A program made the translations under genes and the position numbers. From an uncultured Chloroflexia bacterium (GTDB taxonomy: Bacteria > Chloroflexota > Ktedonobacteria > Ktedonobacterales > JADMIN01), in contig CAVRAI010000001.1 of assembly GCA_963718915.1 (NCBI GenBank), forward strand, positions 240,001 through 272,000: 32,000 nucleotides of DNA, written 5' to 3'. The notes beneath the pieces are model-generated. The model was not told the origin of the DNA. It worked only from the letters and a program-made list of their open reading frames with translations, and did no database searches. Positions 4,245-29,852 of this stretch are shown here, piece after piece. Each line of letters opens with the position of its first letter. The stretch's first letter is position 1.

Positions 4245-4574
4245 ATGGTCAAGATTCGCCTTATGCGCATGGGCATGAAGGGCGCGCCAACCTATCGCGT
4301 CGTCGTCGCCGATGCCCGCTCGCCGCGTGATGGCCGCATTATCGAAAATATCGGCTGGTACAATCCACGCACCGAGCCATCAACGATCAACATTGACGCC
4401 GACCGCGCGAAGCACTGGCTTGGCGTTGGCGCGCAGCCGACCGACTCCGTGGTCTCGCTGCTGATTCGTAGCGGCATCATCCCACGGCCCTCGCGCGAGG
4501 AGACCGTCGCGAAGTCCGCTGTGAAGAAAGCCGCCGCCGCGAAGTCCGCTCAGTCGGCCAAGGCCAGCAGCTAG
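4245..4574 (+). CDS. rpsP: 30S ribosomal protein S16
   Basis: [41 protein letters not shown] is the canonical S16 N-terminus. It has an Ala/Lys-rich C-terminal extension. Confidence 0.97.
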
Positions 4575-4610
4575 CCAGACCTAGCCAGACCTGACTGACC
4601 TGGCCAGACC
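4571..4610. repeat. 10-bp tandem repeat (CTAGCCAGAC x2 exact plus 2 degenerate units)
   Basis: ctagccagac ctagccagac ctgactgacc tggccagacc, spanning the rpsP stop and the intergenic spacer. Confidence 0.75.
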
Positions 4611-4672
4611 TGTCTCAGATGCGGTGGCTCATACGCGCCACCCCGTCTGGAGACTCCGGAGGCGATTTTACC

Positions 4673-4939
4673 ATGCAGGGGCTGATAGAATTTCTCGCGC
4701 GCAATCTCGTCGATGACCCCGACGCTGTGCAGGTGCGTGTGATCCGCGATGATCGCTATGCGACCGTGCTGGGGCTGCGTGTCAGCGGCGAAGACCTGGG
4801 CAAGGTGATTGGCCGCCAGGGACGAGTCGCGCGGGCCATGCGCACGTTGATGCGCACGGCGGCGATGCTAGAAGGCAAGCAGCATATCGGGCTGGAGATC
4901 GATGAGAACGAACCATCCGCGCAGACCCCACAGGAATAG
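4673..4939 (+). CDS. KH domain RNA-binding protein (UPF0109/YlqC-like)
   Basis: GKVIGRQGRVARAMRTLM contains the KH GxxG motif. Conserved position between rpsP and rimM. Start placed at ATG 4673 (MQGLIEF), with GGAGG upstream. Confidence 0.85.
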   Translation: MQGLIEFLARNLVDDPDAVQVRVIRDDRYATVLGLRVSGEDLGKVIGRQGRVARAMRTLMRTAAMLEGKQHIGLEIDENEPSAQTPQE

Positions 4940-5597
4940 CGACGGCGCCGCGCATGCATCCCCCGGCACGCCAGATACGCCAGATACGCCAGAGACGGCA
5001 TGGATCGCCGTCGGCGAGATCGTGGGCGTGTTTGGCATTCGTGGCGAGGTGAAAGTTCTCCCGCAGACTGATTTCCCCGACCGCTTCGCGCGGACGCCAA
5101 CGCTCTACCTGGGCGATGCGCGCGACCCCCGCGCTGTGCAAAGCGCCCGGCAACATCAGCGTATCGTGCTCCTCAAGCTCGCCGGCGTGGACGACGCGAC
5201 CGCCGCCCAAGGTCTGCGTGGCCTCACACTCTGGATTCCCGAGGACGAGCGCATGCCCCTCACCGACGACCAATTCTATCAGCACGATGTCGTTGGCCTG
5301 AAGGTCGTTCATATCAACGGCCAGCCGCTGGGCGAGATCGTCGACTTTATCGCCGGCAGTGGCAACGACCTCTTTGTCGTCCGCGCGGCGCCAGGCGGAC
5401 GCGAGGTACTGCTTCCGGCGGTGCGCGAATTCATCCGCGAGTTAGATATCCCCGGCGGCGTGCTGCGGGTTGACCCCATCCCTGGCCTCTTCGACGACCA
5501 GAGCGAAAACGCCGCCGATTCCAGCAACCCCGACGAGCTTGTGCCAGCGGATGATGCCATCGCTGCCGCTGATACCAACGACCGCCGCGACTCGTAA
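4902..5597 (+). CDS. rimM: 16S rRNA processing protein RimM
   Basis: WIAVGEIVGVFGIRGEVKVLPQTDFPDRF N-terminal barrel plus a PRC-barrel C-terminal region. 4902 is the only upstream ATG and overlaps the KH gene by 38 nt. The acidic C-terminal tail is unusual. Confidence 0.88.
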   Translation: MRTNHPRRPHRNSDGAAHASPGTPDTPDTPETAWIAVGEIVGVFGIRGEVKVLPQTDFPDRFARTPTLYLGDARDPRAVQSARQHQRIVLLKLAGVDDATAAQGLRGLTLWIPEDERMPLTDDQFYQHDVVGLKVVHINGQPLGEIVDFIAGSGNDLFVVRAAPGGREVLLPAVREFIRELDIPGGVLRVDPIPGLFDDQSENAADSSNPDELVPADDAIAAADTNDRRDS

Positions 5598-5672
5598 CAG
5601 ACTATCAGGGAACGAGCCAGCTCATTCAGCGTCACCATCCATGACGCCAGGGCGAGGTCTGGAGGCCCGATA

Positions 5673-7658
5673 GTGCTCGATACACTCGTGAAAGTGCTGC
5701 TAACCGCCGGACTCATCGCCGCGCTGGCATGGCTCGGCGGGCGACTGCTTGGCATCCGCCAGTCGTGGGGGCGCGGTCTGGTCGCCTCGGTGCTTGGCGT
5801 TGGCGCGGCAGCCATCCTCGCGTTCGCGGTCGCCTCGCAGAATCCACTGCCCTATCCGCTCTTCTTCCTGCTCATCATCCTGCTCCCGTCGCTGCTCATC
5901 TCGATGGGCCTCTCTGCCCTGCTGGAATTACTAGTGCGCCCCGGCCCGCTGATTCGAGTCGAGAGTCGTCTCGCCCAGGCGCCACATCCGATCCGCGCCA
6001 TACGGCAATGGTTCGAGCGTGAACGGCGCTACTCGCAGATCACCTGGATAGCCGCCCGGCACGGCCTCGCCACAACCCTCGAACGCCGCCGCCCGCGTTC
6101 CGATGGCGCGGCAGATACCTCCACCGCCACTGTGGCGCGCAACCTGCGTGACGCACTGGTGGAGGCTGGCGGCGTTTTCGTCAAGCTGGGGCAGATCCTC
6201 TCGACGCGCAATGATCTCTTGCCAGCGGATGTGATAGCCGAGTTGAGCGGCTTGCAGGATAACGTACCACCCGCGCCACAGGATGCCATCGAGGAGTTGA
6301 TCGTCGCTGAGCTTGGCGCGCCACCGGCCGTGATCTTCGCGTCGTTCGAGTCGGAGCCTGTGGCCGCCGCGTCCATCGCCCAGGTCTATCGCGCGCAGTT
6401 ACTCACCGGCGAACAGGTTGCCGTCAAGGTACAGCGTCCGGATATTGCCACGCTTGTCGAGCGCGATCTGGATATCCTCCAGCGGCTGGCGCGCATCGTC
6501 GAATCGAGCACCACCTGGGGGCGATCATCCCATGTGACCGAGCTGGCGGGCGGTTTCGCGACGGCCCTGCGTGAGGAGATGGATTTCCGGATCGAGGCGC
6601 GCAACATGCGTACGGTCACGACAGCGCTGGGCAAGTCGGAGACTGTGCGCATCCCGAAGGTCTACGAGCGCCTTTCGACGCGCCGGGTGCTGGTGAGCGA
6701 ATGGTTCGATGGTGTCAGCGCGCGCGACGCTGGCCCGCTGATGGAGGAGTTGGGCCTGGAGCCGGTCGCGCTCGCCCGCGATTTGCTCGACATGATGGCG
6801 CGGCAAATCATGCGCTCAGGTGTCTTCCATGCCGATCCGCACCCTGGCAACGTCTTTGTCTTGCGCAGCAAGCAACTGGGATTGCTCGACTTCGGCTCGG
6901 TTGGCCGGATCGATCTACTGGAGCAGACGGCGCTGCGTGACCTGCTCCTTGCGCTGCAACGGCGTGATGTCGTCGAACTGCGCATTGCATTGCTCGCGCT
7001 GGCGTCGCCCCAGGTGGATCTCGATGCGGAGGTTCACGATGAGCAACTGGAGCGCGAACTGGGACAACTGATGGCGCAATCGCTGCAGCCGGGCGAGCCA
7101 CTGGATGCGAGCATCTTCATCAATCTGCTCCAGCTGCTTCAGGACCATAATCTCGCGTTCCCGCCGGAGGTTGGCGCGGTCTTTCGCGCGGCGGTGACGT
7201 TGGAAGGCACGCTGCGTGTGCTCGCGCCGGGCTTCCCGCTGATGGAGGAGGCGCAGAAGCTGGCGACGCGCTGGGTGAGCGAATCGCTCGTGCCGTCCGC
7301 GCTGGCGCGCTCAGCCAATGACGAGCTGCAATCGCTGCTGCCCATCCTGAAACGGCTGCCCCGGCGGCTGGATCGCATCACCGAGGTAGCCGAACGCGGC
7401 TCACTGACACTGAAGGTGCGGCTCTTCGCCGATGCGCGCGACGAACGGGTCGTCACCACGATAGCCAGCCGGGCGATCATGGCGTTTCTCGGCGGAGTGG
7501 TCGGGCTGATGTCGGTGATGCTGCTCGGCGTTTCAGGTGGCCCGGTCTTCTATCAGGAGATCAGCCTCTTCCAGATTGTCGGCTACCTGGGCCTCTGCGC
7601 CAGCATCATCCTCATCATGCGCGTGGTCATCGCCATCCTGCGCGACCGCGCCGTGTGA
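5673..7658 (+). CDS. ABC1/UbiB-family atypical kinase with N- and C-terminal transmembrane segments
   Basis: Motifs VKLGQILSTRNDLLP, ASIAQVYRA, VAVKVQRPDI, FHADPHPGNVFV and LLDFG. GTG start with GGAGG 7 nt upstream. Confidence 0.9.
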   Translation: MLDTLVKVLLTAGLIAALAWLGGRLLGIRQSWGRGLVASVLGVGAAAILAFAVASQNPLPYPLFFLLIILLPSLLISMGLSALLELLVRPGPLIRVESRLAQAPHPIRAIRQWFERERRYSQITWIAARHGLATTLERRRPRSDGAADTSTATVARNLRDALVEAGGVFVKLGQILSTRNDLLPADVIAELSGLQDNVPPAPQDAIEELIVAELGAPPAVIFASFESEPVAAASIAQVYRAQLLTGEQVAVKVQRPDIATLVERDLDILQRLARIVESSTTWGRSSHVTELAGGFATALREEMDFRIEARNMRTVTTALGKSETVRIPKVYERLSTRRVLVSEWFDGVSARDAGPLMEELGLEPVALARDLLDMMARQIMRSGVFHADPHPGNVFVLRSKQLGLLDFGSVGRIDLLEQTALRDLLLALQRRDVVELRIALLALASPQVDLDAEVHDEQLERELGQLMAQSLQPGEPLDASIFINLLQLLQDHNLAFPPEVGAVFRAAVTLEGTLRVLAPGFPLMEEAQKLATRWVSESLVPSALARSANDELQSLLPILKRLPRRLDRITEVAERGSLTLKVRLFADARDERVVTTIASRAIMAFLGGVVGLMSVMLLGVSGGPVFYQEISLFQIVGYLGLCASIILIMRVVIAILRDRAV

Positions 7659-13711: not shown

Positions 13712-13840
13712 CGGCTAATCCCATCTGTTCGGCACCCTCGCTGATGGCGATCTGTATGCTATCTTGAACGCCATCGCGCCAGATGCTACACTGACAAGGC
13801 AGCCGGACGGTATGTCTGTAAAGCAAGTGAGAGTGCGCCG

Positions 13841-15283
13841 ATGAGCCAGAGCAGCCTAGCAGTTCCCAGCGCCAGCAGCCCTTATAAAATCTTCCTCTCC
13901 TATCGCCGCTCGGATAGCCAGGCGACAGTGGATCACATCTTCGAGTGGCTGGTGCGCGCCTTTGGCCGCGAGGTGATCTTTAAGGATGTGGACACGATCC
14001 CGCGCGGCTACGAGTTCGCCCCCTATATCACCCATGTCCTCAGCCAGTGTCGCGTGGCGCTGCTGGCGCTTGGCCCCTCCTGGCCCACCGTCCTCGCGAC
14101 CGAAGGCGCCTACTCCGGGCGGCCCCGGCTGGACGACCCGGAGGATCATGTGCGGATTGAGACGGAGCAGGCGCTGGCCCTGGCTCCGGTGAATGCGACG
14201 GGCGCGCCTGCCAGCGCGTTACTGCTGATCCCCGTGCTGGTGCAGGGCGCGCAGATGCCACATCCAGGGGACCTGCCCGCGAGCCTGCAGCCGTTGTGCA
14301 GGCGCAATGCCACGCCCGTGCGCTATGACCCGGATTTCACCCGCGATATGCAGCGACTTATCAGCGATTGCGCCCACTGGATGGGCGTCCCCGTCCCCGA
14401 CCTGCTTGGCGCCAACCATACTCCAGCGTCGCTGCGTCCACCAGACGAGGTGGATGCGTTTCTGGCGGTCGCGACGCCTCAAATTCGCGACGCCTTCAGC
14501 GCGCAGAACTGGGCGCAGGTCATCCGGCAGGCGAAGGCGCTTCCTTTGCAGGTTCCTGCCGAGCGTGTACCTACTGAGGTGTATCAGATGTGGGGGCGGG
14601 CGCTCATGGCGATGCGTGACTATGGGGGCGCGAAGACCGCCTGGGACACCGTACGGCAGCGGGAGCCGCGCGATGTGGCGGCGTTGCGGGCGGCGGCGGA
14701 GGCACGAGTGGAGTTGAACGAGCAGGCCGAGGCGCTCACGCTGCTGGATGGCGCGTTGCTGCTCACACAGGGGGACGCTCAGCAGCAGGTGGCGTTGCTG
14801 GCGATATATGCCCACATCCTGCGCGAACTGGCCCAGAGCGAGCGTGGGGCCGCCGCCCAGGCGCACTGGGCGAACCTGCTGCGGGTGGTCAATGAAAGGC
14901 AATCGTTGGCGGGGACGCAGGACACTACCTGGCTGATAATGAAACTGGAAGCGCTTCGGGGATCGGGGCGTGATGTAGAGGCGCTGGAGGTGTTGGAGGA
15001 GGCGCGTGCGCTGACCGCCCGCGCGTCAGCCACCGCCGCGCAGTGGCTGACGCGCGCCCGGCTGGCCTGGACGCTGGCGGGCGAGGCTCCTAATGTTGAG
15101 GTGCGTGTCGCAATCGGCAACGCATCGCGTCTGGCTCCGGCTGATGGGGCGATTGCCTTGGAGCGTCAGCTCCTGCTGAAAGAAACCCTAACACCGCCAA
15201 TATCAGTTCGCTCGGATGGCTCAGCTGAAATTGCTATGCGCGATATGGCCATTGTCGGATTTGGGACTCTAGTACTTAAGTAA
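13841..15283 (+). CDS. TIR domain - TPR repeat protein, 3' end truncated and replaced by an IS insertion
   Basis: N-terminal YKIFLSYRRSDS...VRIETEQAL...LIPVLVQGAQMP resembles a bacterial TIR_2 domain. The C-terminal half is helical and TPR-like. The last 3 codons and the TAA stop (15272-15283) lie inside IS sequence. Confidence 0.85.
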   Translation: MSQSSLAVPSASSPYKIFLSYRRSDSQATVDHIFEWLVRAFGREVIFKDVDTIPRGYEFAPYITHVLSQCRVALLALGPSWPTVLATEGAYSGRPRLDDPEDHVRIETEQALALAPVNATGAPASALLLIPVLVQGAQMPHPGDLPASLQPLCRRNATPVRYDPDFTRDMQRLISDCAHWMGVPVPDLLGANHTPASLRPPDEVDAFLAVATPQIRDAFSAQNWAQVIRQAKALPLQVPAERVPTEVYQMWGRALMAMRDYGGAKTAWDTVRQREPRDVAALRAAAEARVELNEQAEALTLLDGALLLTQGDAQQQVALLAIYAHILRELAQSERGAAAQAHWANLLRVVNERQSLAGTQDTTWLIMKLEALRGSGRDVEALEVLEEARALTARASATAAQWLTRARLAWTLAGEAPNVEVRVAIGNASRLAPADGAIALERQLLLKETLTPPISVRSDGSAEIAMRDMAIVGFGTLVLK

Positions 15284-16220
15284 CTATCTCAAAAGGGACA
15301 AGCGATGGAGGCGGCGAAACCACAGCAGCGCGCAGGCCAGTTGGAGCAGCCCCCGAAAATTGGCGGCGTACTTGTCGTAGCGGATGAGCAGCGCGCGGCA
15401 CTTCGAGAGCCAGGCCAGCGTGCGCTCCACGACCCAGCGACGTGCCGGGAACCGCTTCTCACCCGTGGCCAGATCGAGCTTCTCCTTGCCGATGCGGCGC
15501 AGGTGCGGGATGTAGTGGTGGCTTGCCACCGCCGCGGCGCCGGTCGGATTGTCATAGCCCAGATCCAAACACAGATGCTGTGGCCGCTCCCGGGTCGGAT
15601 GAGGCCGCGCCACCACAACTGCCTCCAGCGTCGCCGCGAGCAGCTTGGTATCATGGACATTGGCACCAGCGATCACGACCGCCAGTGGGCCGCCAGCCGC
15701 CTCGACCAGCAGGCTGCGCTTCACTCCGCGTTTGCCGCGATCGGTGGGATTGCGGCCAATGAGGTCCCCCCCAGCCGGGCCTTGCCCAGCATGGCATCTG
15801 CCGCTTGCCACTCCCAGTCCACCCCACCCAACTCGGCACAGTGGTCCACCAGCGTGGCCCAGATGCACTCGAAAAAGCCCAGACGCACCCAGCGCTGGAA
15901 GGTGCGATGGACTGAGCTATCATCAGGGAACCGCTCCGGCAACTGGTTCCACTGGCAGCCGCTGCGCAGCCGAAAGATGAGTGCATCCAGCGTCCGCCGC
16001 GCATCCACGCGTGGCCGGCCCGTCGCCTGCGGCGGATCAAGCCTCGCCAGGATTGGGGCAATCACATCCCATAACTCATCGGAGACGGTCCAGATCGTCG
16101 CCATGGCGTTCCAATCGGGCCGGACCTTGCGTGGTCGCCCCATCCCTCACCTCCTGCCTGATCATCACTCCCTTCCACAGCACAGTCTACCGCACCTGAC
16201 AGCGTTCTGAGATAGTTACT
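15279..16220 (-). mobile_element. IS5-family (IS427/IS1031-like) insertion sequence nested in the IS630 left IR
   Basis: 942 bp. The IRs are AGTAACTATCTCA(A/G)AA at both ends. Flanking TA at 15277-15278 and 16221-16222. Carries an orfA/orfB transposase. Confidence 0.85.
15284..16143 (-). CDS. IS5-family transposase, orfA (15721-16143) and orfB (15284-15868) joined by a -1 frameshift
   Basis: orfA has ..GRPRVDARRTLDALIFRLRSGCQWNQLP... orfB has GRNPTDRGKRGVKRSLLVEAAGGPLAV..ANVHD. The frames overlap at a G7 run (C7 on the plus strand, 15766-15772). A -1 shift gives the canonical ..GKARLGGDLIGRNPTDRGK. Confidence 0.85.
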
Positions 16221-16277
16221 TAGTCCACATTGATTTGGGAGAAGGTGGTAGAATGCAGCACCAGAAAGGAGCCTCGT

Positions 16278-17416
16278 ATGCCCACCTCTACCCACCCCCT
16301 GACGTTGTCCGCCGCTGAACGCGCCCAGGCCCAGACCGTCATCCAGCGCGGACATACCGCTGCGCGAATCCAGCGGCGCGCCCATGTGCTCTTGAAATTG
16401 GCCGACGGCTGGAGCGCCGCCGCGATTAGCCAGGCGCTCGATGTCAGCCAGAATACGGTCTGGCGCGTGCGCCAACGCTTTGCCGCAGAGGGTGTCGCGG
16501 CGGTGCTCGCCGACCGGCGGCAGACGCGGCTCCGGGCCGCCTTGACCGGCGAGCAGCAAGCCCACCTCATTGCCGTCGCGTGCAGCGATGCGCCCGCTGG
16601 CCACGACCACTGGACGCTGCGCCTCTTGGCGGGCAAAGCGATCGAACTCGGCTTTGTGGAACGCATCTCGCCCGAAACCATCCGCGCCTTGCTCAAAAAA
16701 ACGCGCTGAAGCCCTGGCAGCACAAAGCCTGGTGTATTCCCACCGTGAGCGCCGCCTTTGTCGCGGCGATGGAGGATGTGCTCGCGCTTTACGCCCACGT
16801 CTATGCCGCTCCGCCCGATCCCCTGCGCCCCCTCGTCTGCCTCGATGAGAAGCCCGTCGTCTTGCACGGGCAGCCGCGGATGGGACTGCCGCCCGCTCCC
16901 GGCCGCGTGGAGCGCCGGGACTACGAATATATTCGGCAGGGAACGGCCAACCTCTTTGTGCTGGTCGCTCCGCATGCGGGCTGGCGTCACGTACGCGTCA
17001 CCGCGCGGCGTACCGCGCTGGACTATGCCCGCTGCTTGCGGTGGCTGGTCGAGGAAGCCTTCCCTCTGGCCGAGCGGATCGCGCTCGTGCAGGATAACCT
17101 CAACACCCATACCCTGGCCGCGCTCTATGCGGCGTTCCCGCCTGCGCAGGCGCGCGCTATCGCCAGCCGCTTGGAGGTGCACTATACGCCAAAACATGGC
17201 AGTTGGCTCAATATGGCCGAGATCGAGATCAGCGTCATCGAGCGCGGCTGCCTCGCGCGTCCAGTCCCCGATAACGACACGCTGGTTCAGCGCGTCACCG
17301 CCCTGGAGGCCGAGCGCAACGCAACTCACGCCCGCATCCGCTGGCAATTCACCCCCGATGATGCTCGTACCAAGCTGCATGCGCTCTATCCTAACCCTCA
17401 AATCAAACTGGACTGA
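16278..17416 (+). CDS. IS630-family transposase, orfA (16278-16709) and orfB (to 17416) joined by a -1 frameshift
   Basis: HTH N-terminus and a DDE region (DEKPV...VQDNLNTHT...YTPKHGSWLNMAEIE). The slippery A7 run at 16695-16701 gives ..ALLKKNALKPWQHKAWCIP. RBS GAAAGGAG precedes ATG 16278. Confidence 0.88.
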
Positions 17417-17526
17417 GTACTAGGAAGCACATTCGGTCTCGGGGTATGCCGAGACGTTGCCCGATTGTTTGGCGATTTATTTTGGCTGGCGGGATTATAC
17501 ACGTCGAACACCAAAATTTCCTCCGG

Positions 17527-18486
17527 ATGAAAACGCAACTACTTATGTCGAGATGTTCAGCAAATTTATTGAGTGTTGCCCCCAACGAAGAGCCCATGAT
17601 CGCAGCTACTCATCTTGTATCGCTCCTCGAAAGTTTCTATATCTCTACGCGGCGAAACACTGTAAAACCGCTGTTATGGGTAGTTGAGGGTCGAGATCTT
17701 ACTATTTGCCTTCCGGCGCTCAAGACATTGGGGAGGAAGCGCGACTTTGATGACATCCGTTTGGTCATCGTCTGGATTGTGCCTGATTCTATTGATCAGG
17801 CTTTGAAGGATAGCGCAGCTGAACTGCTAGCATGGTCGCAGCAGGTTGACACCATCCTGGCGACTACGCTGGTAATTCAGCATAACAGTCGGCTTGCCGA
17901 AACAATGAGGCGCAGCCAGTTCAACATCCTCTATAGGAGCATCGCCGCGCTCCTGGGCGGTGGCATGGTCAATCCTGAAGCCAACTTCGCCACTTTGACG
18001 ATTCAACTCCACAATGCCGGATACCCGTTCGTCGCTCTTGCGGCTGGCGCAATTGGTGTGAATGCATCTCACAGTAATTTCACTAACGGCTTGATCGTTG
18101 GCAATAGAGGAGATATCAACCCGATTGATGCCTCATTTAAGGTCAATCAATTGGCTTCTATGGCGCTCCGGAAAGAAAGTGAGTTGTCAACCGTCACCGA
18201 ATCGCTATCAGCGGTTCCTTTCGTCAACCTGGTCGTACCCACGCGCCTTCAGATGACAAGGGAGTTTCAGAGCGAGGTTTCCCACCGGCTCCGATTTGAA
18301 TATGGTGTGCCATCAGAGAATGTCATCGTCACGCCCTTGACCGATCCGAGAGATCGCGGAATCGATATCAGCAGGCAAAATAGATGGTTCAAGGGAGACT
18401 TCTATATCCACTTTACGGCTCTACGTGGTATTGGTACCGGGCATGGGGAGATACCCAAAGATTTGCAAGGTGAGGTATCCCTATAA
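17527..18486 (+). CDS. hypothetical protein in a low-GC island (possible degenerate FtsZ/tubulin-like fold)
   Basis: Long ORF (track 17446-18486) in a region of visibly lower GC. Start uncertain: ATG at 17446, 17527, 17545 or 17596. 17527 is preferred because of the ATGA overlap with the reconstructed upstream stop. No family confidently recognised. Confidence 0.6.
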   Translation: MKTQLLMSRCSANLLSVAPNEEPMIAATHLVSLLESFYISTRRNTVKPLLWVVEGRDLTICLPALKTLGRKRDFDDIRLVIVWIVPDSIDQALKDSAAELLAWSQQVDTILATTLVIQHNSRLAETMRRSQFNILYRSIAALLGGGMVNPEANFATLTIQLHNAGYPFVALAAGAIGVNASHSNFTNGLIVGNRGDINPIDASFKVNQLASMALRKESELSTVTESLSAVPFVNLVVPTRLQMTREFQSEVSHRLRFEYGVPSENVIVTPLTDPRDRGIDISRQNRWFKGDFYIHFTALRGIGTGHGEIPKDLQGEVSL

Positions 18487-18936
18487 GGACAGGACGAGGC
18501 CGCTGAGCCAGACGGTGCATTGCTCGATGGTCAGGCAGCCGCAGCTCATCCCCTCACGCAGGAGGCTCTGCATCGCGTGGATACGCGCCAGTTGCGCCTC
18601 CAACTCGTTGAGCTTGCGCTGAACCAGCGCCTCCCACCGCACCGACGGCGGCGTGCCAGCCTCGAAGCCGAAGAACAACTCGCGAATCTCGCCAAGGGTA
18701 AATCCCGCCTGCCGCGCGTGCGCGATCACCCGAAGCCGCTGAACCGTGCTGGTGTCATAGCGCCGCCGTCCGTTGAGTCGCGCGGGCATAGGCAAGAGGC
18801 CAATATCCTCGTAGTAGCGGATCACTGAGGTGGCGATTCCTGCTCGACGCGCGACCACGCCTATCGCCAGGCCAACCTCACTGCTCGAATGTGCCGCGTC
18901 GATTGGGTCGCATCCATCGTCGTCGTTCGCCGCCAT
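18481..18936 (-). CDS. MerR-family transcriptional regulator, SoxR-like
   Basis: HTH region LAIGVVARRAGIATSVIRYYEDIGLLP..NGRRRYD. C-terminal SCGCLTIEQC resembles the SoxR CxxCxCx5C cluster motif but lacks the first Cys. RBS GGAGAAA. Confidence 0.85.
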   Translation of the reverse strand: MAANDDDGCDPIDAAHSSSEVGLAIGVVARRAGIATSVIRYYEDIGLLPMPARLNGRRRYDTSTVQRLRVIAHARQAGFTLGEIRELFFGFEAGTPPSVRWEALVQRKLNELEAQLARIHAMQSLLREGMSCGCLTIEQCTVWLSGLVLSL

Positions 18937-18988
18937 CGCCTGTTTTCTCCACGATCCATCAAATTTCGCAATTTGGGCTGCTCATCCC

Positions 18989-19020
18989 TTGACTTCAAGC
19001 GCACTTGAAGAGTGTACGCT
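18989..19020 (+). promoter_or_regulatory. MerR-type promoter with overlong spacer and a SoxR-box-like dyad
   Basis: TTGACT (18989-18994), 20-nt spacer, TACGCT (19015-19020). The perfect inverted repeat CTTCAAG-cgca-CTTGAAG (18993-19010) is centred in the spacer. Confidence 0.6.
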
Positions 19021-19093
19021 GCTGAGCGAGGGAAAAACTACCCTCAGGCGATTGTGCGCTGTTCCAGATGTCAGGGACAGAAAGGAGTGTTCG

Positions 19094-19459
19094 ATGATGT
19101 CCGATGGTTCTGTGGATATCCCGGTAGCATGCAGTCTTACTGACGCTGAACTGGAGGTTCGGGGCGACGAAAATGCTGACCTATTCGCGCATGCTCGTGC
19201 GGTCGAGGAGTTACCAGACGGCTATCGCTTCGCCTTCCCGGCGGACGATGATGGCGTCCCGGCGCTGCTACAGTTCATCCTTGCCGAGCGCGCCTGCTGC
19301 CCGTTCTTCACGTTCGAGTTGCTGTTCCCTGCACCACACCAGGTCGTCTGGGTGACGATTCGGGGCAATGAAGAAGCCAAGGGGATTGTGCGCGATGGGC
19401 TGGTGCCGAAAGTTCGCGCACAGTCTGTAACATCGTCAGGAAATGGCTCAGCAGCGTGA
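19094..19459 (+). CDS. small Cys-containing protein (ACSL ... ERACCPFFTF motif), divergent from the merR-like gene
   Basis: ATG 19094 is preceded by AAAGGAG. 121 aa. A conserved-looking CCPFF motif suggests a metal or redox ligand site. Family name not recalled. Confidence 0.65.
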   Translation: MMSDGSVDIPVACSLTDAELEVRGDENADLFAHARAVEELPDGYRFAFPADDDGVPALLQFILAERACCPFFTFELLFPAPHQVVWVTIRGNEEAKGIVRDGLVPKVRAQSVTSSGNGSAA

Positions 19460-27746: not shown

Positions 27747-29852
27747 GTGTCGCTTACATTACTTTTCGGCTTGATGACGTTGGCGCCGGCCGTCGTCGCG
27801 ATTCTTCTCGTCATCCTTTCGCGTGTCACCACATTCCGCCTGCCGTCGCCGGTCGCATTCGCCCTGGCGGGGCTGGCAGCGGCCGCGCCAATTGTCGGGC
27901 TGATTCTGCTCAGTTCCGATCTCACCTTCCCCACGCCGCTTCGCTTCGCCTTCGCGGGCAATAGCGCCACGCCGTTCGCGCCGGTCTTCCGCGCGGATGG
28001 CTTTTCCTTCTACAGCGCCTGGGGCATCGCGGTGCTGATCGTGCCGCTGTTGCTCTGGCTGGTCTGGATGGACGCGGGCCGGGCAGCAAGCTCATCCGGT
28101 CGGCTGCTGGCCGAGCTGGGACTGGTGATCGGCCTCGAAGCGTGCGCGCTGCAACTGGTCTTCTCCGATAACCTGCTCTGGTTCGGCCTGGTCTGGCTCG
28201 CGTTGGTAGCGCTGACATGGTACCTGGGAGAACAGGGCGCCGAGAGCAGTAATCTCGATTATCGCGGCCTGATTGCGATGCTGATTGGGCCAGCGTTGAC
28301 AGTGCTGCTGCTACTGCTCATCGCGATCACCACCAAAGATCACACGTTCTACGGGCTGGCGGGCCATTCAGCCGCGTCGCCGTGGCAGATCGTCCTGCTG
28401 GCGGTAACACTCTCGCTGGCGGGCGGTGGCTATCCGTTCGTTGCGTGGGTGCGCCGGAGGGCCGCGTTTGCCACGCCGTCCGGGTTCGGCGCGCTCCTGG
28501 CGCTGGCGCTGCCGATGGTCGTCTTTGTCGGCGCGCGCTCATGGAGCGCCCTGCAAGCGACCACCAGCGGACTCTGGCCGCAGATTGGCGCGGTGACGCC
28601 GCCGATCACCGGAGGCATCGCGCTGGCGGTGCTCGGCTCGCTCTCGGTTGCCATTGCTGGTCTGCTGGCGCTTGGGCGCCGCGATGGGCGCACCCTGGTG
28701 GCGCTGCTCGCGACCGCGCAGGTCGGCTGGGGGCTGTTCGCCCTCGGCTCGTCACAGCCCGCCGCCGCTATCGGCGTGGTCATCTTGCTGGCGACCAGTG
28801 TGGTGGGTATCGGCGCGATGACGGCGGCGCTGGTTTCCGGCGGCATACTGACGGCGGATGATGAGCCTGACGGATCTGGCCCAGCGCCGTTTGGCCTGGC
28901 GTCACGCCCACTCAACCTTCTTGCCTGGTCTGTCGGCGCGGCTACCGCGCTGGGTGTCCCGTTCTTCGGCGGGTTCATCGCGCGCAACCAGATTACCGCC
29001 GGCACGCTTGCCGGGACGAAACTGGGCATCCCGCTCCTTGGCCTTGCCTGGCTGGGCGATGCGCTCTTTGCGCTGGCGCTGATCCGAGCGACGGTGCTGG
29101 CCTTCAAGGCCGACCCGGACGAACTGGCGGGCGATGAGACCGAAAAACCCGCGCGTTCCTCCGCGTCGGAGTTGCTGGAGCTGCCCGGAGCGGTGCTGGC
29201 GGTCATCGGGATCGCGCTTGGCATCTTCCCCCAGACATTCCTGAATATGGGCGCTCTCTTCGCGGTCGATCAGATAACGCCCGCAGGCGCCGCGAATGGC
29301 GTGCTGCGCGTCATATCGTTCGGCTACTCGACCGGGAATAGCCAGTGGCTCCCCGGCATCTTCTGGCTGGCGGCGGTGGTGCTGACAGGCGCCATTCTGC
29401 TCATCCGCCTGGGAACGCACCGCACCGCGGTGACGCTGGAGATCAGCGGCGAGGCAGAGTTGACCGGCATGGAACGCGACGCGCTGGACGAGCCTGCGGT
29501 CGTCTGGGTTGACCTCGCCTCCGCCTTTACCTCGTCCTGGACGCAGGTGGCGGGCAGTCAGCTCATCGGCGGTATCGATGAAGATGACGAATACATCGAG
29601 GCGCAACTGGACGACGACGACGAGGGCGACGATGACAGCGGCCCCGACGACACGACGCCTCCTGACGACGCCGATGACGGCGCCGCGACGCCCGAAAAAG
29701 GTGTGGCTCCGGCCAATGGCGTGACAGCAGAGGCAAACGTGGCCGACGAGACCGCCGAGGACACATCCGCCGAAGAGGCGCCCGTCAACGAACGCAAGGC
29801 GGCGAAGCAGGGCGCCCGTAAAGCCGGACAGCGCGGCCAGTCGCGGCAATAG
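27747..29852 (+). CDS. divergent complex-I antiporter-like subunit (NuoL/M/N - HycC/HyfB - MrpD superfamily) with an acidic disordered C-terminal tail
   Basis: Segments collinear with PF00361-type proteins. FRADGFSFYSAWGIAVLIVPLL matches the N-terminal motif. SDNLLWFGLVWLALVALTWYL matches the TM5 region. GGGYPFVAWVRRRAAFATPSGFGALLA corresponds to K..PFH.WLPDA..APTPVSALL. LLALGRRDGRTLVALLATAQVGWG corresponds to Al.Q.DlKRlLAYSSi.H.G. RBS AAGGGAGG. Confidence 0.6.
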   Translation: MSLTLLFGLMTLAPAVVAILLVILSRVTTFRLPSPVAFALAGLAAAAPIVGLILLSSDLTFPTPLRFAFAGNSATPFAPVFRADGFSFYSAWGIAVLIVPLLLWLVWMDAGRAASSSGRLLAELGLVIGLEACALQLVFSDNLLWFGLVWLALVALTWYLGEQGAESSNLDYRGLIAMLIGPALTVLLLLLIAITTKDHTFYGLAGHSAASPWQIVLLAVTLSLAGGGYPFVAWVRRRAAFATPSGFGALLALALPMVVFVGARSWSALQATTSGLWPQIGAVTPPITGGIALAVLGSLSVAIAGLLALGRRDGRTLVALLATAQVGWGLFALGSSQPAAAIGVVILLATSVVGIGAMTAALVSGGILTADDEPDGSGPAPFGLASRPLNLLAWSVGAATALGVPFFGGFIARNQITAGTLAGTKLGIPLLGLAWLGDALFALALIRATVLAFKADPDELAGDETEKPARSSASELLELPGAVLAVIGIALGIFPQTFLNMGALFAVDQITPAGAANGVLRVISFGYSTGNSQWLPGIFWLAAVVLTGAILLIRLGTHRTAVTLEISGEAELTGMERDALDEPAVVWVDLASAFTSSWTQVAGSQLIGGIDEDDEYIEAQLDDDDEGDDDSGPDDTTPPDDADDGAATPEKGVAPANGVTAEANVADETAEDTSAEEAPVNERKAAKQGARKAGQRGQSRQ

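What the first reader, a model, noticed from the sequence alone, without database searches (positions are those of the whole stretch)
13841..18486. TIR-TPR gene truncated by an IS; excision restores an operon with a low-GC unknown gene (candidate two-gene TIR system)
The TIR-TPR ORF ends in IS sequence: codons GTA CTT AAG TAA at 15272-15283 belong to the IS630 and IS5 ends. Removing 15272-17422 (IS630 plus one TA copy) in silico joins ...GGG ACT CTA to GGA AGC ACA.... The frame then stays open for 35 codons (GSTFGLGVCRDVARLFGDLFWLAGLYTSNTKISSG, partly hydrophobic) to TGA at 17528-17530. That stop overlaps an in-frame ATG (17527-17529) of the next long ORF, giving an ATGA coupling junction. GC visibly drops from about 15180, inside the 3' end of the TIR-TPR ORF, and stays low after the IS up to about 18480. 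This supports the two sides having been contiguous. Bacterial TIR domains (Thoeris and other TIR-containing defence systems) are NAD-consuming or signalling effectors, and a candidate catalytic Glu is present (VRIETEQAL). A TIR-TPR protein coupled to an uncharacterised partner and inactivated by IS insertion is a plausible novel defence-type module. Caveat: 35 stop-free codons at about 50% GC could occur by chance with probability of order 0.2.
Basis: partly seen in the sequence, partly recalled or inferred. Interest (0 to 1): 0.75.

Follow-up and report, generated by a model that had tools for sequence, protein, structure and literature searches.

The report
IS-broken TIR gene fused to tubulin-like domain
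This is not a two-gene TIR operon but the wreck of one chimeric gene: an immune-type TIR-TPR protein whose usual hypervariable lectin-like sensor domain was replaced by a foreign, very divergent tubulin/FtsZ-like domain, and which was then split by two nested transposable elements.

Summary
The excision restores real coding sequence. A family HMM built without the window matches the repaired ORF in one hit (positions 4-370 of 371, 363 bits).

The two-gene reading fails. The 35 codons and the "319-aa unknown gene" are parts of one domain (X). The TGA/ATGA is a 1-nt homopolymer frameshift (CC here, CCC in a sister contig). X folds confidently (pLDDT 87) as a tubulin/FtsZ-superfamily domain without the GGGTGSG signature. 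Its rare relatives (Ktedonobacterales where named) carry it behind a multi-TM module, in an operon with a soluble paralogue and a NACHT-like protein.

Close homologues of the TIR-TPR part all end in an FGE-sulfatase/C-type-lectin domain, and one is a demonstrable DGR target. None has an X neighbour. In the window a 50%-GC X cassette replaced that domain in frame, at domain boundaries.

A second, independent chimera (TIR plus the TM module of the same family) hints at a functional link between the two. The function remains inferred, and the gene is dead.

The parts
13841..15271 (+). 5' part of the chimeric ORF (477 codons): TIR, helical TPR-like region, linker, and the first ~16 residues of domain X
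   Evidence: ORF list. 60-65% identity to P0005/P0007 up to 15169-15199. In frame with the X homology.
13880..14395 (+). TIR domain (aa ~14-185). Candidate catalytic Glu E107 = codon 14159-14161
   Evidence: Pfam TIR_2 at 26.4 bits, just under the 28-bit cut-off; homologues pass. PADLOC ThsB-like E 1.7e-6. Family profile hits the SARM1 TIR at E 2e-5, with E107 aligned to the Glu of HKE. E107 is invariant in A8.
14438..15181 (+). Alpha-helical TPR-like region shared with the TIR-TPR-FGE homologues
   Evidence: Sub-threshold TPR_16/TPR_2/TPR_19 hits. Alignment A1 is conserved to about aa 447.
15182..15235 (+). Recombination junction / linker. Homology to TIR-TPR-FGE proteins ends and GC drops from ~0.65 to ~0.5. 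Homology to the X family starts just downstream
   Evidence: tblastn end points 15169/15199. GC profile. HMM position 4 starts about 10 aa before strand S1.
15270..15271 (.). Left copy of the TA target-site duplication of the IS630-family element (inside the Leu codon CTA of the GFGTL|GS loop)
15272..17420 (+). IS630-family element (about 1205 bp without the nested IS). HTH ORF 16230-16709 and DDE_3 ORF 16580-17416 overlap at an A7 run
   Evidence: Pfam HTH_32/HTH_23/DDE_3. IRs and TA/TA. A-run.
15279..16219 (-). IS5-family (IS427/IS1031-like) element nested in the left IR of the IS630. TTA duplication at 15276-78 / 16220-22
   Evidence: DUF4096 (15721-16143) and DDE_Tnp_1 (15284-15868) ORFs on the minus strand. 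IR GTAACTATCTC. Same insertion point in L001.
17421..17422 (.). Right copy of the TA duplication
17423..17524 (+). Continuation of domain X in the TIR-TPR frame (GSTFGLGVCRDVARLFGDLFWLAGLYTSNTKISS = T1 loop, helix H1, strand S2)
   Evidence: Matches the family motif G(S)xFxxGVCxxVxxLFGxxxWLAGLYxxN. HMM positions 15-46.
17523..17530 (+). 1-nt frameshift site (CC here, CCC in L001).
   Evidence: Alignment A3. Homologues read ...LASRMKNRL... across this point.
17525..18486 (+). Rest of domain X (frame +1 relative to the upstream part), ending at TAA 18484-86.
   Evidence: HMM positions 41-370 of 371, 310 bits. 43-47% identity to P0003/P0094-96. AF2 pLDDT 87 for the repaired 377-aa domain and Foldseek hits to tubulin/FtsZ/CetZ.
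18481..18936 (-). MerR-family regulator (host GC). Its stop overlaps the stop of X and marks the right edge of the low-GC cassette. Not part of the system
   Evidence: Pfam MerR_1 / MerR-DNA-bind. GC 0.64.

Best explanation
The locus is the remnant of ONE chimeric gene of about 831 codons, with this layout:
- TIR domain (aa ~14-185).
- Helical TPR-like region (to about aa 447).
- Short linker.
- A divergent tubulin/FtsZ-superfamily domain, "X" (about 370 aa).

Shown:
1. X is a single domain that spans both the IS630 site and the TGA/ATGA.
2. All close homologues of the TIR-TPR part carry a C-terminal FGE-sulfatase/C-type-lectin domain instead of X. In at least one of them that domain is diversified by a diversity-generating retroelement (DGR).
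3. In the window that domain is absent. In its place is a 50%-GC, domain-sized X cassette, in frame with TIR-TPR. Relatives of X normally sit behind a multi-TM module in an operon with a soluble paralogue, a polytopic membrane protein and a NACHT-like protein; where a source is named, they come from Ktedonobacterales.
4. The gene was then broken by an IS630-family insertion at a TA in the T1 loop of X. That IS630 was itself hit by an IS5-family element. There is also a 1-nt homopolymer frameshift, which is either real or an assembly error.

Inferred:
- The cassette came by horizontal transfer from a lower-GC relative. It swapped the ligand-sensing module of a single-chain sensor-effector protein for a self-assembling one.
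- When intact, the protein would have been an NAD-cleaving TIR effector (E107 retained). Its activation, which in known TIR enzymes requires ordered oligomerisation, would be governed by tubulin-like assembly of X or by docking of X onto the native TM-X/paralogue system.
- The product is now at most a truncated TIR-TPR protein.
For: One domain across the IS and the frameshift:
- A profile search finds 20 relatives of the downstream ORF. In most, the match is the C-terminal part of a 700-1030-aa protein. These proteins carry, just upstream of the match, the motif R.LAIVGFGSxGSxFAxGVCxQVxxLFGxxxWLAGLYxxN. The window has RDMAIVGFGTL|GSTFGLGVCRDVARLFGDLFWLAGLYTSN, where | marks the IS site.
- A family HMM built without the window matches the repaired ORF at positions 4-370 of 371 in one hit (362.8 bits).
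- L001 has CCC at 17523 and reads through.

Fold of X:
- The repaired 377-aa X gives an AF2 model with pLDDT 87.0 and pTM 0.89. The 296-aa "downstream ORF" alone, with a 2-sequence alignment, gave 37.6.
- Foldseek top hits are CetZ2 (E 5.5e-10), gamma/beta-tubulin and FtsZ, all at probability 1.00 and TM 0.5-0.58. The viral library returns phage tubulins.

Domain replacement:
- P0005-P0011 are 51-64% identical to the window protein up to aa ~447 and then continue into PF03781.
- There is no FGE remnant anywhere in the window.
- In L012 the homologue is followed by RVT_1 and bAvd, and its 3' end pairs with a template repeat that differs almost only at TR adenines.

Foreign origin of X:
- GC is 0.50 and GC3 0.54 in X, against 0.66-0.67 and 0.77-0.82 in the flanking host genes. 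Native TM-X operons are 0.58-0.64.

Boundaries of the cassette:
- The cassette starts about 10 aa before strand S1 (HMM position 4) and ends at HMM position 370 of 371, at the X stop codon, which abuts the merR stop.

TIR competence:
- The family profile hits the SARM1 TIR at E 2e-5. Invariant E107 is aligned to the Glu of DWVHKEIVTAL.

Independent link between TIR and this family:
- P0013 is a TIR 56% identical to the window's, fused to the TM module of the same family (E 1.7e-68).

Precedents:
- Tubulin homologues and FGS (FGE-sulfatase) domains occur in predicted conflict systems of multicellular bacteria (PMC7159879). DGR-diversified C-type-lectin sensors occur with TIR effectors (PMC10907252).
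Against: - No intact, IS-free TIR-TPR-X allele was found anywhere. The architecture is known only from this locus and its near-identical sister contig.
- In-frame fusion has a 1-in-3 chance expectation.
- ATG codons at 15236 and 15245 (MRDMAIVGFG) could have started a separately translated X.
- X lacks the GGGTG(S/T)G T4 signature and the acidic T7 residues. GTP binding and polymerisation are therefore unproven, and X may be a pseudo-enzyme.
- The Pfam TIR_2 and TPR scores of the window protein itself are below the gathering cut-offs.
- The locus sits among housekeeping genes, not in a defence island.
- The gene is dead, so no present function can be claimed.
- All structural inference rests on a predicted model with a 15-sequence alignment.
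Confidence: 0.6

Rival explanations
1. First reader's model. A 512-aa TIR-TPR protein is translationally coupled through ATGA to a separate 319-aa partner gene of unknown function, forming a two-gene TIR defence module.
For: After in-silico IS excision the ORF does end at TGA 17528-30, overlapping ATG 17527-29. A gene caller annotated a separate 313-aa product (P0001).
Against: The last 50 residues of the "512-aa protein" and the "319-aa protein" align to consecutive parts of one domain in about 30 homologues, with no gene boundary there. L001 has one more C and reads through. Conservation with P0003 starts only at 17596, so nothing supports ATG 17527 as a start. There is no Shine-Dalgarno sequence before 17527. 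No TIR-TPR homologue has such a neighbour.
Confidence: 0.03
2. A truncated TIR-TPR pseudogene sits next to an independently translated, horizontally acquired stand-alone X gene that starts at ATG 15236 or 15245. The frame continuity between the two is accidental and there is no functional link.
For: ATG codons lie immediately before strand S1 (MRDMAIVGFG). TM-less X paralogues that start right at this motif exist (P0105, L002 gene 2). In-frame continuity has probability 1/3. The cassette has foreign GC.
Against: The window's X is 45-47% identical to the TM-anchored subfamily but only 18-25% to the soluble paralogues. The Met positions are not conserved in the family, which has N/R and L there. 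No evident ribosome-binding site lies in 15215-15235. The low-GC DNA extends about 50 nt upstream of these ATGs, in frame and stop-free. A second TIR fusion with the same family exists (P0013).
Confidence: 0.2
3. Pure debris. An illegitimate recombination or HGT event destroyed a DGR-type TIR-TPR-FGE gene, and the resulting chimera never functioned. The IS insertions are further decay.
For: The architecture is unique in 5.8 billion clusters. The locus carries three inactivating lesions. The surroundings are housekeeping genes. No DGR reverse transcriptase remains in the window.
Against: Both break-points respect domain boundaries, and the cassette is almost exactly one domain (HMM 4-370 of 371). 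About 370 codons at 50% GC remain stop-free apart from one homopolymer indel. The TIR-TPR part is intact and keeps all family-invariant residues. This argues for recent selection or very recent origin.
Confidence: 0.15

Closest known systems
DGR-diversified TIR-(TPR)-FGE-sulfatase / C-type-lectin sensor-effector proteins of multicellular bacteria (Kaur et al. 2020, PMC7159879; Dore et al. 2024, PMC10907252)
   Same: The N-terminal TIR plus helical region is 51-64% identical to such proteins (P0005-P0011). One of them (P0006, L012) has an adjacent RVT_1 and bAvd and a VR/TR pair. The layout is also the same: effector at the N-terminus, variable module at the C-terminus.
   Different: The defining FGE/CLec domain and any DGR are absent from the window. 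A tubulin/FtsZ-like domain occupies the sensor position.
Tubulin/FtsZ superfamily (FtsZ, CetZ, tubulins, phage PhuZ/TubZ)
   Same: The predicted fold and strand/helix order (S1-H1 ... H7-T7-H8 plus the C-terminal domain) match. Foldseek gives probability 1.00 and E down to 5.5e-10. X keeps a glycine-rich loop after S1 (GFGxxGS).
   Different: Sequence identity is only 7-14% and there is no Pfam Tubulin hit. The T4 signature GGGTG(S/T)G is replaced by (V)xGxD, and the T7 acidic residues are not conserved. In the native family the domain sits C-terminal to a roughly seven-helix membrane module.
FtsZl1 / FtsZl2 families (Makarova & Koonin 2010, PMC2875224) and the tubulin-containing GTPase-centric conflict systems (PMC7159879)
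   Same: These are divergent prokaryotic tubulin-superfamily proteins encoded in multi-gene, membrane-associated or conflict-type neighbourhoods. One crenarchaeal FtsZ-like gene with N-terminal TM helices is likewise transposon-disrupted.
   Different: FtsZl1 and FtsZl2 retain GGGTG(S/T)G. They associate with coiled-coil, vWA, GTPase or OmpA partners, or with HSP70 and GAP1-type GTPases. The X family has none of these. It is instead linked to a soluble paralogue, a polytopic membrane protein and a NACHT-like TM protein.
TIR NADase effectors activated by ordered assembly (SARM1; per my own knowledge also TIR-SAVED, TIR-STING and Thoeris ThsB)
   Same: The TIR profile matches the SARM1 TIR, with the catalytic Glu position conserved. 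There are weak ThsB / SAVED-TIR PADLOC hits. The TIR is fused to a potentially self-assembling module.
   Different: No ThsA, SAVED, STING or cyclase partner is present in the window. Any assembly module here would be tubulin-like, and I found no precedent for that in the held literature.

Membership tests
TIR domain (PF13676 TIR_2), NADase type | Significant match to a TIR profile over the whole domain | tested here: met
   The window protein alone scores 26.4 bits against a 28-bit cut-off. However, its alignable homologues pass, and the family profile A8 hits SARM1 TIR chains at E 2e-5 over positions 4-152.
TIR domain (PF13676 TIR_2), NADase type | Catalytic glutamate in the WxxxE-like motif | tested here: met
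   E107 (VRIETEQAL) is invariant in A8. It aligns with the Glu of SARM1 DWVHKEIVTAL. Identifying that residue as E642 rests on my own knowledge.
TIR domain (PF13676 TIR_2), NADase type | NAD+ cleavage activity | not testable with these tools
   Needs a biochemical assay.
Thoeris (ThsA + ThsB) | Adjacent ThsA-type effector (SIR2 / Macro / TM with SLOG) | tested here: not met
   Only partial ThsB-like hits on the TIR (NCBIfam 21 bits against a 220-bit cut-off). No such neighbour is present in the window.
DGR-targeted TIR-TPR-FGE/CLec sensor proteins | C-terminal FGE-sulfatase (C-type-lectin fold) domain | tested here: not met
   tblastn of P0005/P0007 finds nothing beyond 15199 anywhere in the window.
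DGR-targeted TIR-TPR-FGE/CLec sensor proteins | Nearby reverse transcriptase / Avd and a TR-VR pair | tested here: not met
   Present in L012. No RT or Avd is among the window ORFs scanned.
DGR-targeted TIR-TPR-FGE/CLec sensor proteins | Homologous N-terminal TIR plus helical region | tested here: met
   51-64% identity over aa 1-447.
Tubulin/FtsZ superfamily | Two-domain tubulin/FtsZ fold | tested here: met
   AF2 pLDDT 87 and pTM 0.89. Foldseek PDB top 50 hits are all tubulin, FtsZ or CetZ, at probability 1.00 and TM 0.48-0.58. This rests on a predicted structure only.
Tubulin/FtsZ superfamily | T4 signature GGGTG(S/T)G | tested here: not met
   The loop after strand S4 reads WVVEGRDL in the window and WVVxGxDL in the family.
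Tubulin/FtsZ superfamily | T1 glycine-rich loop after S1 | tested here: inconclusive
   GFGxxGS, with G19 and G21 invariant in A4. It resembles but does not equal GxGGGGxN or GQCGNQ. No residue-level structural superposition was available.
Tubulin/FtsZ superfamily | GTP binding/hydrolysis and head-to-tail polymerisation | not testable with these tools
   Needs biochemistry or electron microscopy.
FtsZl1 / FtsZl2 (PMC2875224) | Retained GGGTGSG. Coiled-coil plus alpha C-domain (l1) or proteobacterial alpha/beta C-region (l2). vWA/GTPase/OmpA neighbourhood | tested here: not met
   The motif is absent. The architecture is TM module plus X. The neighbours are a soluble paralogue, a multi-TM protein and a NACHT-like protein.
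IS630 family | HTH plus DDE_3 transposase, terminal IRs, TA target duplication | tested here: met
IS5 family (IS427/IS1031-like group) | DUF4096 plus DDE_Tnp_1 in two overlapping frames, short IRs, 2-4 bp duplication | tested here: met
   The TTA duplication is at 15276-78 / 16220-22. Subgroup assignment is from my own knowledge.
Translationally coupled two-gene operon (ATGA) | Stop/start overlap conserved between two separately conserved genes | tested here: not met
   The overlap is absent in L001. Homologues are continuous polypeptides across this point.

The most novel reading that the evidence does not exclude
A previously undescribed, T4-less, membrane-anchored branch of the tubulin/FtsZ superfamily forms part of an immune or conflict apparatus. 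It is paired with a soluble paralogue and a NACHT-like membrane protein, and where a source is named it comes from Ktedonobacterales. TIR NADase effectors have plugged into this apparatus at least twice: once by fusing to its tubulin-like domain (this window) and once by fusing to its membrane module (P0013). In the intact window protein, tubulin-like polymerisation, or co-assembly with the native system, would line up TIR domains and switch on NAD+ cleavage. That would be a new way to activate a TIR.
Probability: 0.15. Interest if true: 0.8.

Novelty: new variant of a known kind. Interest (0 to 1): 0.5.

Why it matters
The result corrects an attractive but wrong reading. An apparent "ATGA-coupled partner gene" turns out to be the frameshifted tail of the same domain. 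This shows how IS excision plus family-profile matching can reconstruct a dead gene.

The reconstructed protein is a natural domain-swap experiment. In a family of single-chain TIR sensor-effectors, the hypervariable (DGR-targeted) lectin-type sensor has been exchanged, at domain boundaries, for a tubulin/FtsZ-like module. If that chimera worked, it would tie TIR activation, which depends on ordered oligomerisation, to a cytoskeletal-type polymer.

Independently, the X family itself has no Pfam, NCBIfam, PHROG or PADLOC model and only a few dozen members. It looks like an unrecognised, highly divergent tubulin-superfamily lineage with a conserved operon, and it is worth structural and cell-biological study in filamentous Chloroflexota.

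Tried and rejected
- Direct annotation of the downstream ORF: Pfam, PADLOC, PHROGs and NCBIfam gave no hits.
- AF2 on the 296-aa ORF with a 2-sequence alignment: pLDDT 37.6, unusable.
- Profile search of PDB sequences with the X alignment: only designed proteins, which is meaningless.
- Search for an FGE-sulfatase remnant or a TM-module remnant in the window: none.
- Search for an IS-free allele: a degenerate junction pattern found 0 hits in JGI metagenomes. The genome-contig scans with the X alignment and with the TIR-TPR protein found no relative except a distant acidobacterial TIR. The metagenome scan with the X alignment confirmed nothing.
- Organism name: the cluster look-up carries no names or accessions, and P0004 is not on record in the contig index. 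The taxon is inferred only from homologues labelled Ktedonobacterales.
- C-terminus of P0015 (a TIR-TPR homologue without FGE): unassigned by Pfam and by PDB sequence search.
- Rejected, P0003 as evidence for a stand-alone 377-aa gene: it starts at the contig edge and matches the C-terminal part of 870-aa P0094.
- Rejected, Thoeris membership: no ThsA is present.
- Rejected, FtsZl1/l2 membership: the signature motif and the gene context differ.

Full report
**1.

- ORF 13841-15283 (480 aa) runs into IS sequence.
- An IS630-family element occupies 15272-17420. It has an HTH ORF at 16230-16709 and a DDE_3 ORF at 16580-17416.
- Its ends are GTACTTAGTCCAC... and ...CTGGACTGAGTAC, and it is flanked by TA at 15270-71 and 17421-22.
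- Its left inverted repeat is split by an IS5-family element at about 15279-16219. That element has DUF4096 and DDE_Tnp_1 ORFs on the minus strand, an IR of GTAACTATCTC, and a TTA duplication.
- Deleting 15272-17422 yields the 512-aa ORF, the 35 extra codons, TGA 17528-30 and the overlapping ATG 17527-29 exactly as described.
- GC falls from 0.65-0.82 to about 0.5 between 15150 and 15210. Outside the IS elements it stays near 0.50 up to 18486. GC3 is 0.54 there, against 0.77-0.82 in neighbouring host genes.

**2. What the upstream gene normally looks like**

The closest relatives of the TIR-TPR protein (P0005-P0011) are 51-64% identical to it and about 700 aa long. They align with it only up to about residue 447. 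After that they all continue into a PF03781 FGE-sulfatase domain.

tblastn places the end of homology at window 15169-15199, which is where the GC drops. It finds no FGE remnant anywhere in the window.

The contexts of these homologues share no conserved neighbour, and none contains a homologue of the downstream ORF.

In L012 the homologue P0006 is followed by a reverse transcriptase (RVT_1) and bAvd. The last 129 nt of its FGE domain pair with a repeat downstream of bAvd, and the two copies differ almost only where the downstream copy has adenine. This is the signature of a diversity-generating retroelement.

So the parental family is the known kind of TIR effector fused to a DGR-diversified C-type-lectin/FGE sensor, described for multicellular bacteria (PMC7159879, PMC10907252).

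The TIR itself looks catalytically competent:
- A profile of the family's TIR region hits SARM1 TIR chains at E 2e-5.
- The invariant E107 (VRIETEQAL) aligns with the Glu of SARM1 DWVHKEIVTAL. Calling that residue E642 rests on my own knowledge.

**3. What the downstream ORF really is**

The word-indexed search found only three relatives:
- the ORF itself;
- P0002 on L001, which is the same locus from a sister contig, 94% identical at the nucleotide level and carrying both IS elements;
- P0003, which starts at a contig edge.

The exhaustive profile search found 20 representatives. In most of them the match is the C-terminal ~300-370 residues of a 700-1030-aa protein. Their N-terminal ~330-460 residues form a multi-TM module.

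Immediately upstream of the matched part, these proteins carry the motif R.LAIVGFGSxGSxFAxGVCxQVxxLFGxxxWLAGLYxxN. The window's repaired junction reads RDMAIVGFGTL|GSTFGLGVCRDVARLFGDLFWLAGLYTSN, where | marks the IS630 site.

The homologues then continue ...LASRMKNRLSN... (P0096), where the window has ...KISS and then, one frame over, RMKTQLLMSR. The TGA/ATGA is therefore a 1-nt frameshift inside a single domain. L001 has CCC where the window has CC (17523-24) and reads through.

An HMM of the family built without the window quantifies this:

| Sequence tested | HMM positions matched | Score |
|---|---|---|
| Downstream ORF as it stands | 41-370 | 310 bits |
| 35-codon piece | 15-46 | 23 bits |
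| IS-excised and frame-repaired ORF | 4-370 of 371, one hit | 362.8 bits |

**4. The fold of domain X**

With a 15-sequence alignment, the repaired 377-aa domain gives an AF2 model with pLDDT 87.0 and pTM 0.89. The truncated 296-aa ORF with a 2-sequence alignment gave 37.6.

Foldseek against the PDB returns only tubulin-superfamily proteins at the top:
- CetZ2 4b45, E 5.5e-10;
- gamma- and beta-tubulins;
- FtsZ 5mn5 and 2vap;
- all at probability 1.00 and TM 0.48-0.58.

The viral library returns phage tubulins and PhuZ.

The order of secondary-structure elements is S1-H1-S2-H2-S3-H3-S4-H4-S5-H5-S6, a long H7, H8, and then a C-terminal beta/alpha domain. By my reading this is the FtsZ topology.

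- The IS630 sits in the glycine-rich loop after S1 (GFGTL|GS).
- The family keeps that loop (GFGxxGS).
- It lacks the GGGTG(S/T)G T4 signature (WVVxGxDL instead) and the acidic T7 residues.
- It has no Pfam, NCBIfam, PHROG or PADLOC model.
- It differs from FtsZl1/FtsZl2, which keep the signature and have other partners.

**5. Native context of X**

In L002 and L008 the TM-X gene is followed by three genes:
- a TM-less X paralogue (452-508 aa; HMM E about 1e-21 to 1e-23);
- a polytopic membrane protein (493-509 aa);
- a 900-1000-aa protein with a Walker A motif, a weak NACHT hit and TM segments.

All four genes are homologous between the two loci. A fifth gene (286-293 aa) is shared between L007 and L008.

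These native operons have 58-64% GC, like their hosts. The window contains no other piece of the operon.

**6. How the window locus arose (inference)**

A cassette of about 1.13 kb and 50% GC sits in frame after the TPR region of a resident 67%-GC gene. It corresponds almost exactly to domain X, from about 10 residues before S1 (HMM position 4) to the stop codon (HMM position 370 of 371). It replaces the FGE domain and everything up to the stop codon of the convergent merR gene.

Both break-points respect domain boundaries, and the X part is stop-free except for the homopolymer indel. For these reasons I favour a once-functional TIR-TPR-X fusion over random debris. An in-frame join still has a 1-in-3 chance expectation, and the ATGs at 15236 and 15245 leave room for a separately translated X.

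The TA insertion of IS630 came later, and the IS5 hit in its IR came after that. The IS5 hit probably prevents precise excision. Both insertions are shared with L001 at identical positions.

**7. A second chimera**

P0013 (L010) is a complete 512-aa ORF. It joins a TIR 56% identical to the window's to the TM module of the same TM-X family (HMM positions 33-333 of 348, E 1.7e-68). It stops where X would begin, and the TM part again has lower GC.

Two independent fusions of this TIR clade with the two halves of one rare family are suggestive of a functional association. They are not proof of one.

**8. Mechanism**

Shown:
- The domain composition.
- Conservation of the TIR catalytic Glu position.
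- The tubulin-like predicted fold.
- The IS and frameshift lesions.

Inferred:
- The parental proteins are single-chain sensor-effectors, with the CLec domain sensing and the TIR executing.
- In the chimera, the sensor was replaced by a module that may self-assemble or dock onto the TM-X/paralogue system. That would provide the ordered oligomerisation that known TIR NADases need.
- GTP binding and polymerisation of X are untested, and the missing T4 motif makes them doubtful.
- Today the locus can at most yield a 480-aa TIR-TPR stub.

**9. Verdict**

The "two-gene TIR system" is not supported.

What remains is a dead, so far unique domain-swap variant of a known TIR sensor-effector family, together with an apparently undescribed tubulin-superfamily lineage. 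Interest is moderate. It would be high only if TIR-tubulin coupling proves functional.

Noticed in passing
L001 (whole, = window 13828-18519): The sister contig from ENA assembly ERZ25039457 shows mosaic divergence from the window. Mismatches are about 9% in 13828-14994 (TIR-TPR) and inside the IS5 (15271-16132). They are about 1% or less in 15000-15270, the IS630 and domain X. Both IS junctions are identical. This suggests recent recombination or gene conversion between strains, or a strain-mixed assembly. L001 also has many homopolymer indels.
   Followed up: partly
L010 617-2155: P0013 is a complete ORF that fuses a TIR (56% identical to the window's) to the multi-TM module of the TM-X family. 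It lacks TM1 and the X domain, and a tRNA-like sequence sits at the contig end. GC drops from 0.585 (TIR) to 0.515 (TM part).
   Followed up: partly
L012 2490-6427: The TIR-TPR-FGE homologue P0006 is a DGR target. RVT_1 (4741-5853) and bAvd (5834-6196) follow it. VR 4505-4633 and TR 6299-6427 are 84% identical, with differences almost only at TR adenines.
   Followed up: yes
L002 18-7868; L008 25-9704; L007 7289-10238: There is a conserved gene cluster of unknown function. It comprises a 286-293-aa protein, TM-X (a tubulin-like domain behind about seven TM helices), a soluble X paralogue, a ~500-aa polytopic membrane protein (weak DUF5671 hit), and a 900-1000-aa Walker-A / weak-NACHT protein with TM segments.
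   Followed up: partly
window 16690-16710: The IS630 HTH and DDE_3 ORFs are in different frames and overlap at an A7 run (CTCAAAAAAACGCG). This could be a programmed frameshift site, or another homopolymer error or lesion.
   Followed up: no
L003 399-2522: P0010 is a TIR-TPR-FGE paralogue or orthologue from the same ENA assembly. It loses alignment with the family inside the FGE domain (...EAEWEKRPAGTNAMGS...), as if frameshifted. This is either a pseudogene or an assembly indel.
   Followed up: no
L011 2488-2955: An IS200-type Y1 transposase gene lies directly downstream of the closest TIR-TPR-FGE homologue, P0007. L011 comes from the same JGI metagenome (3300047677) as L002.
   Followed up: no
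window 18830-19459 and 27747-29852: Two sizeable ORFs (209 aa, divergent from merR; and 701 aa) have no Pfam hit, in an otherwise housekeeping neighbourhood (IF-2, ABC1, CtaA, IMPDH, M20 peptidase, aminotransferase, GatB, glutamate dehydrogenase).
   Followed up: no
P0015 (716 aa): This TIR-TPR homologue (32% identity over 86% of the query) has neither FGE nor X. It has a different, unassigned ~300-aa C-terminal domain, which suggests that C-terminal module swapping recurs in this family.
   Followed up: partly
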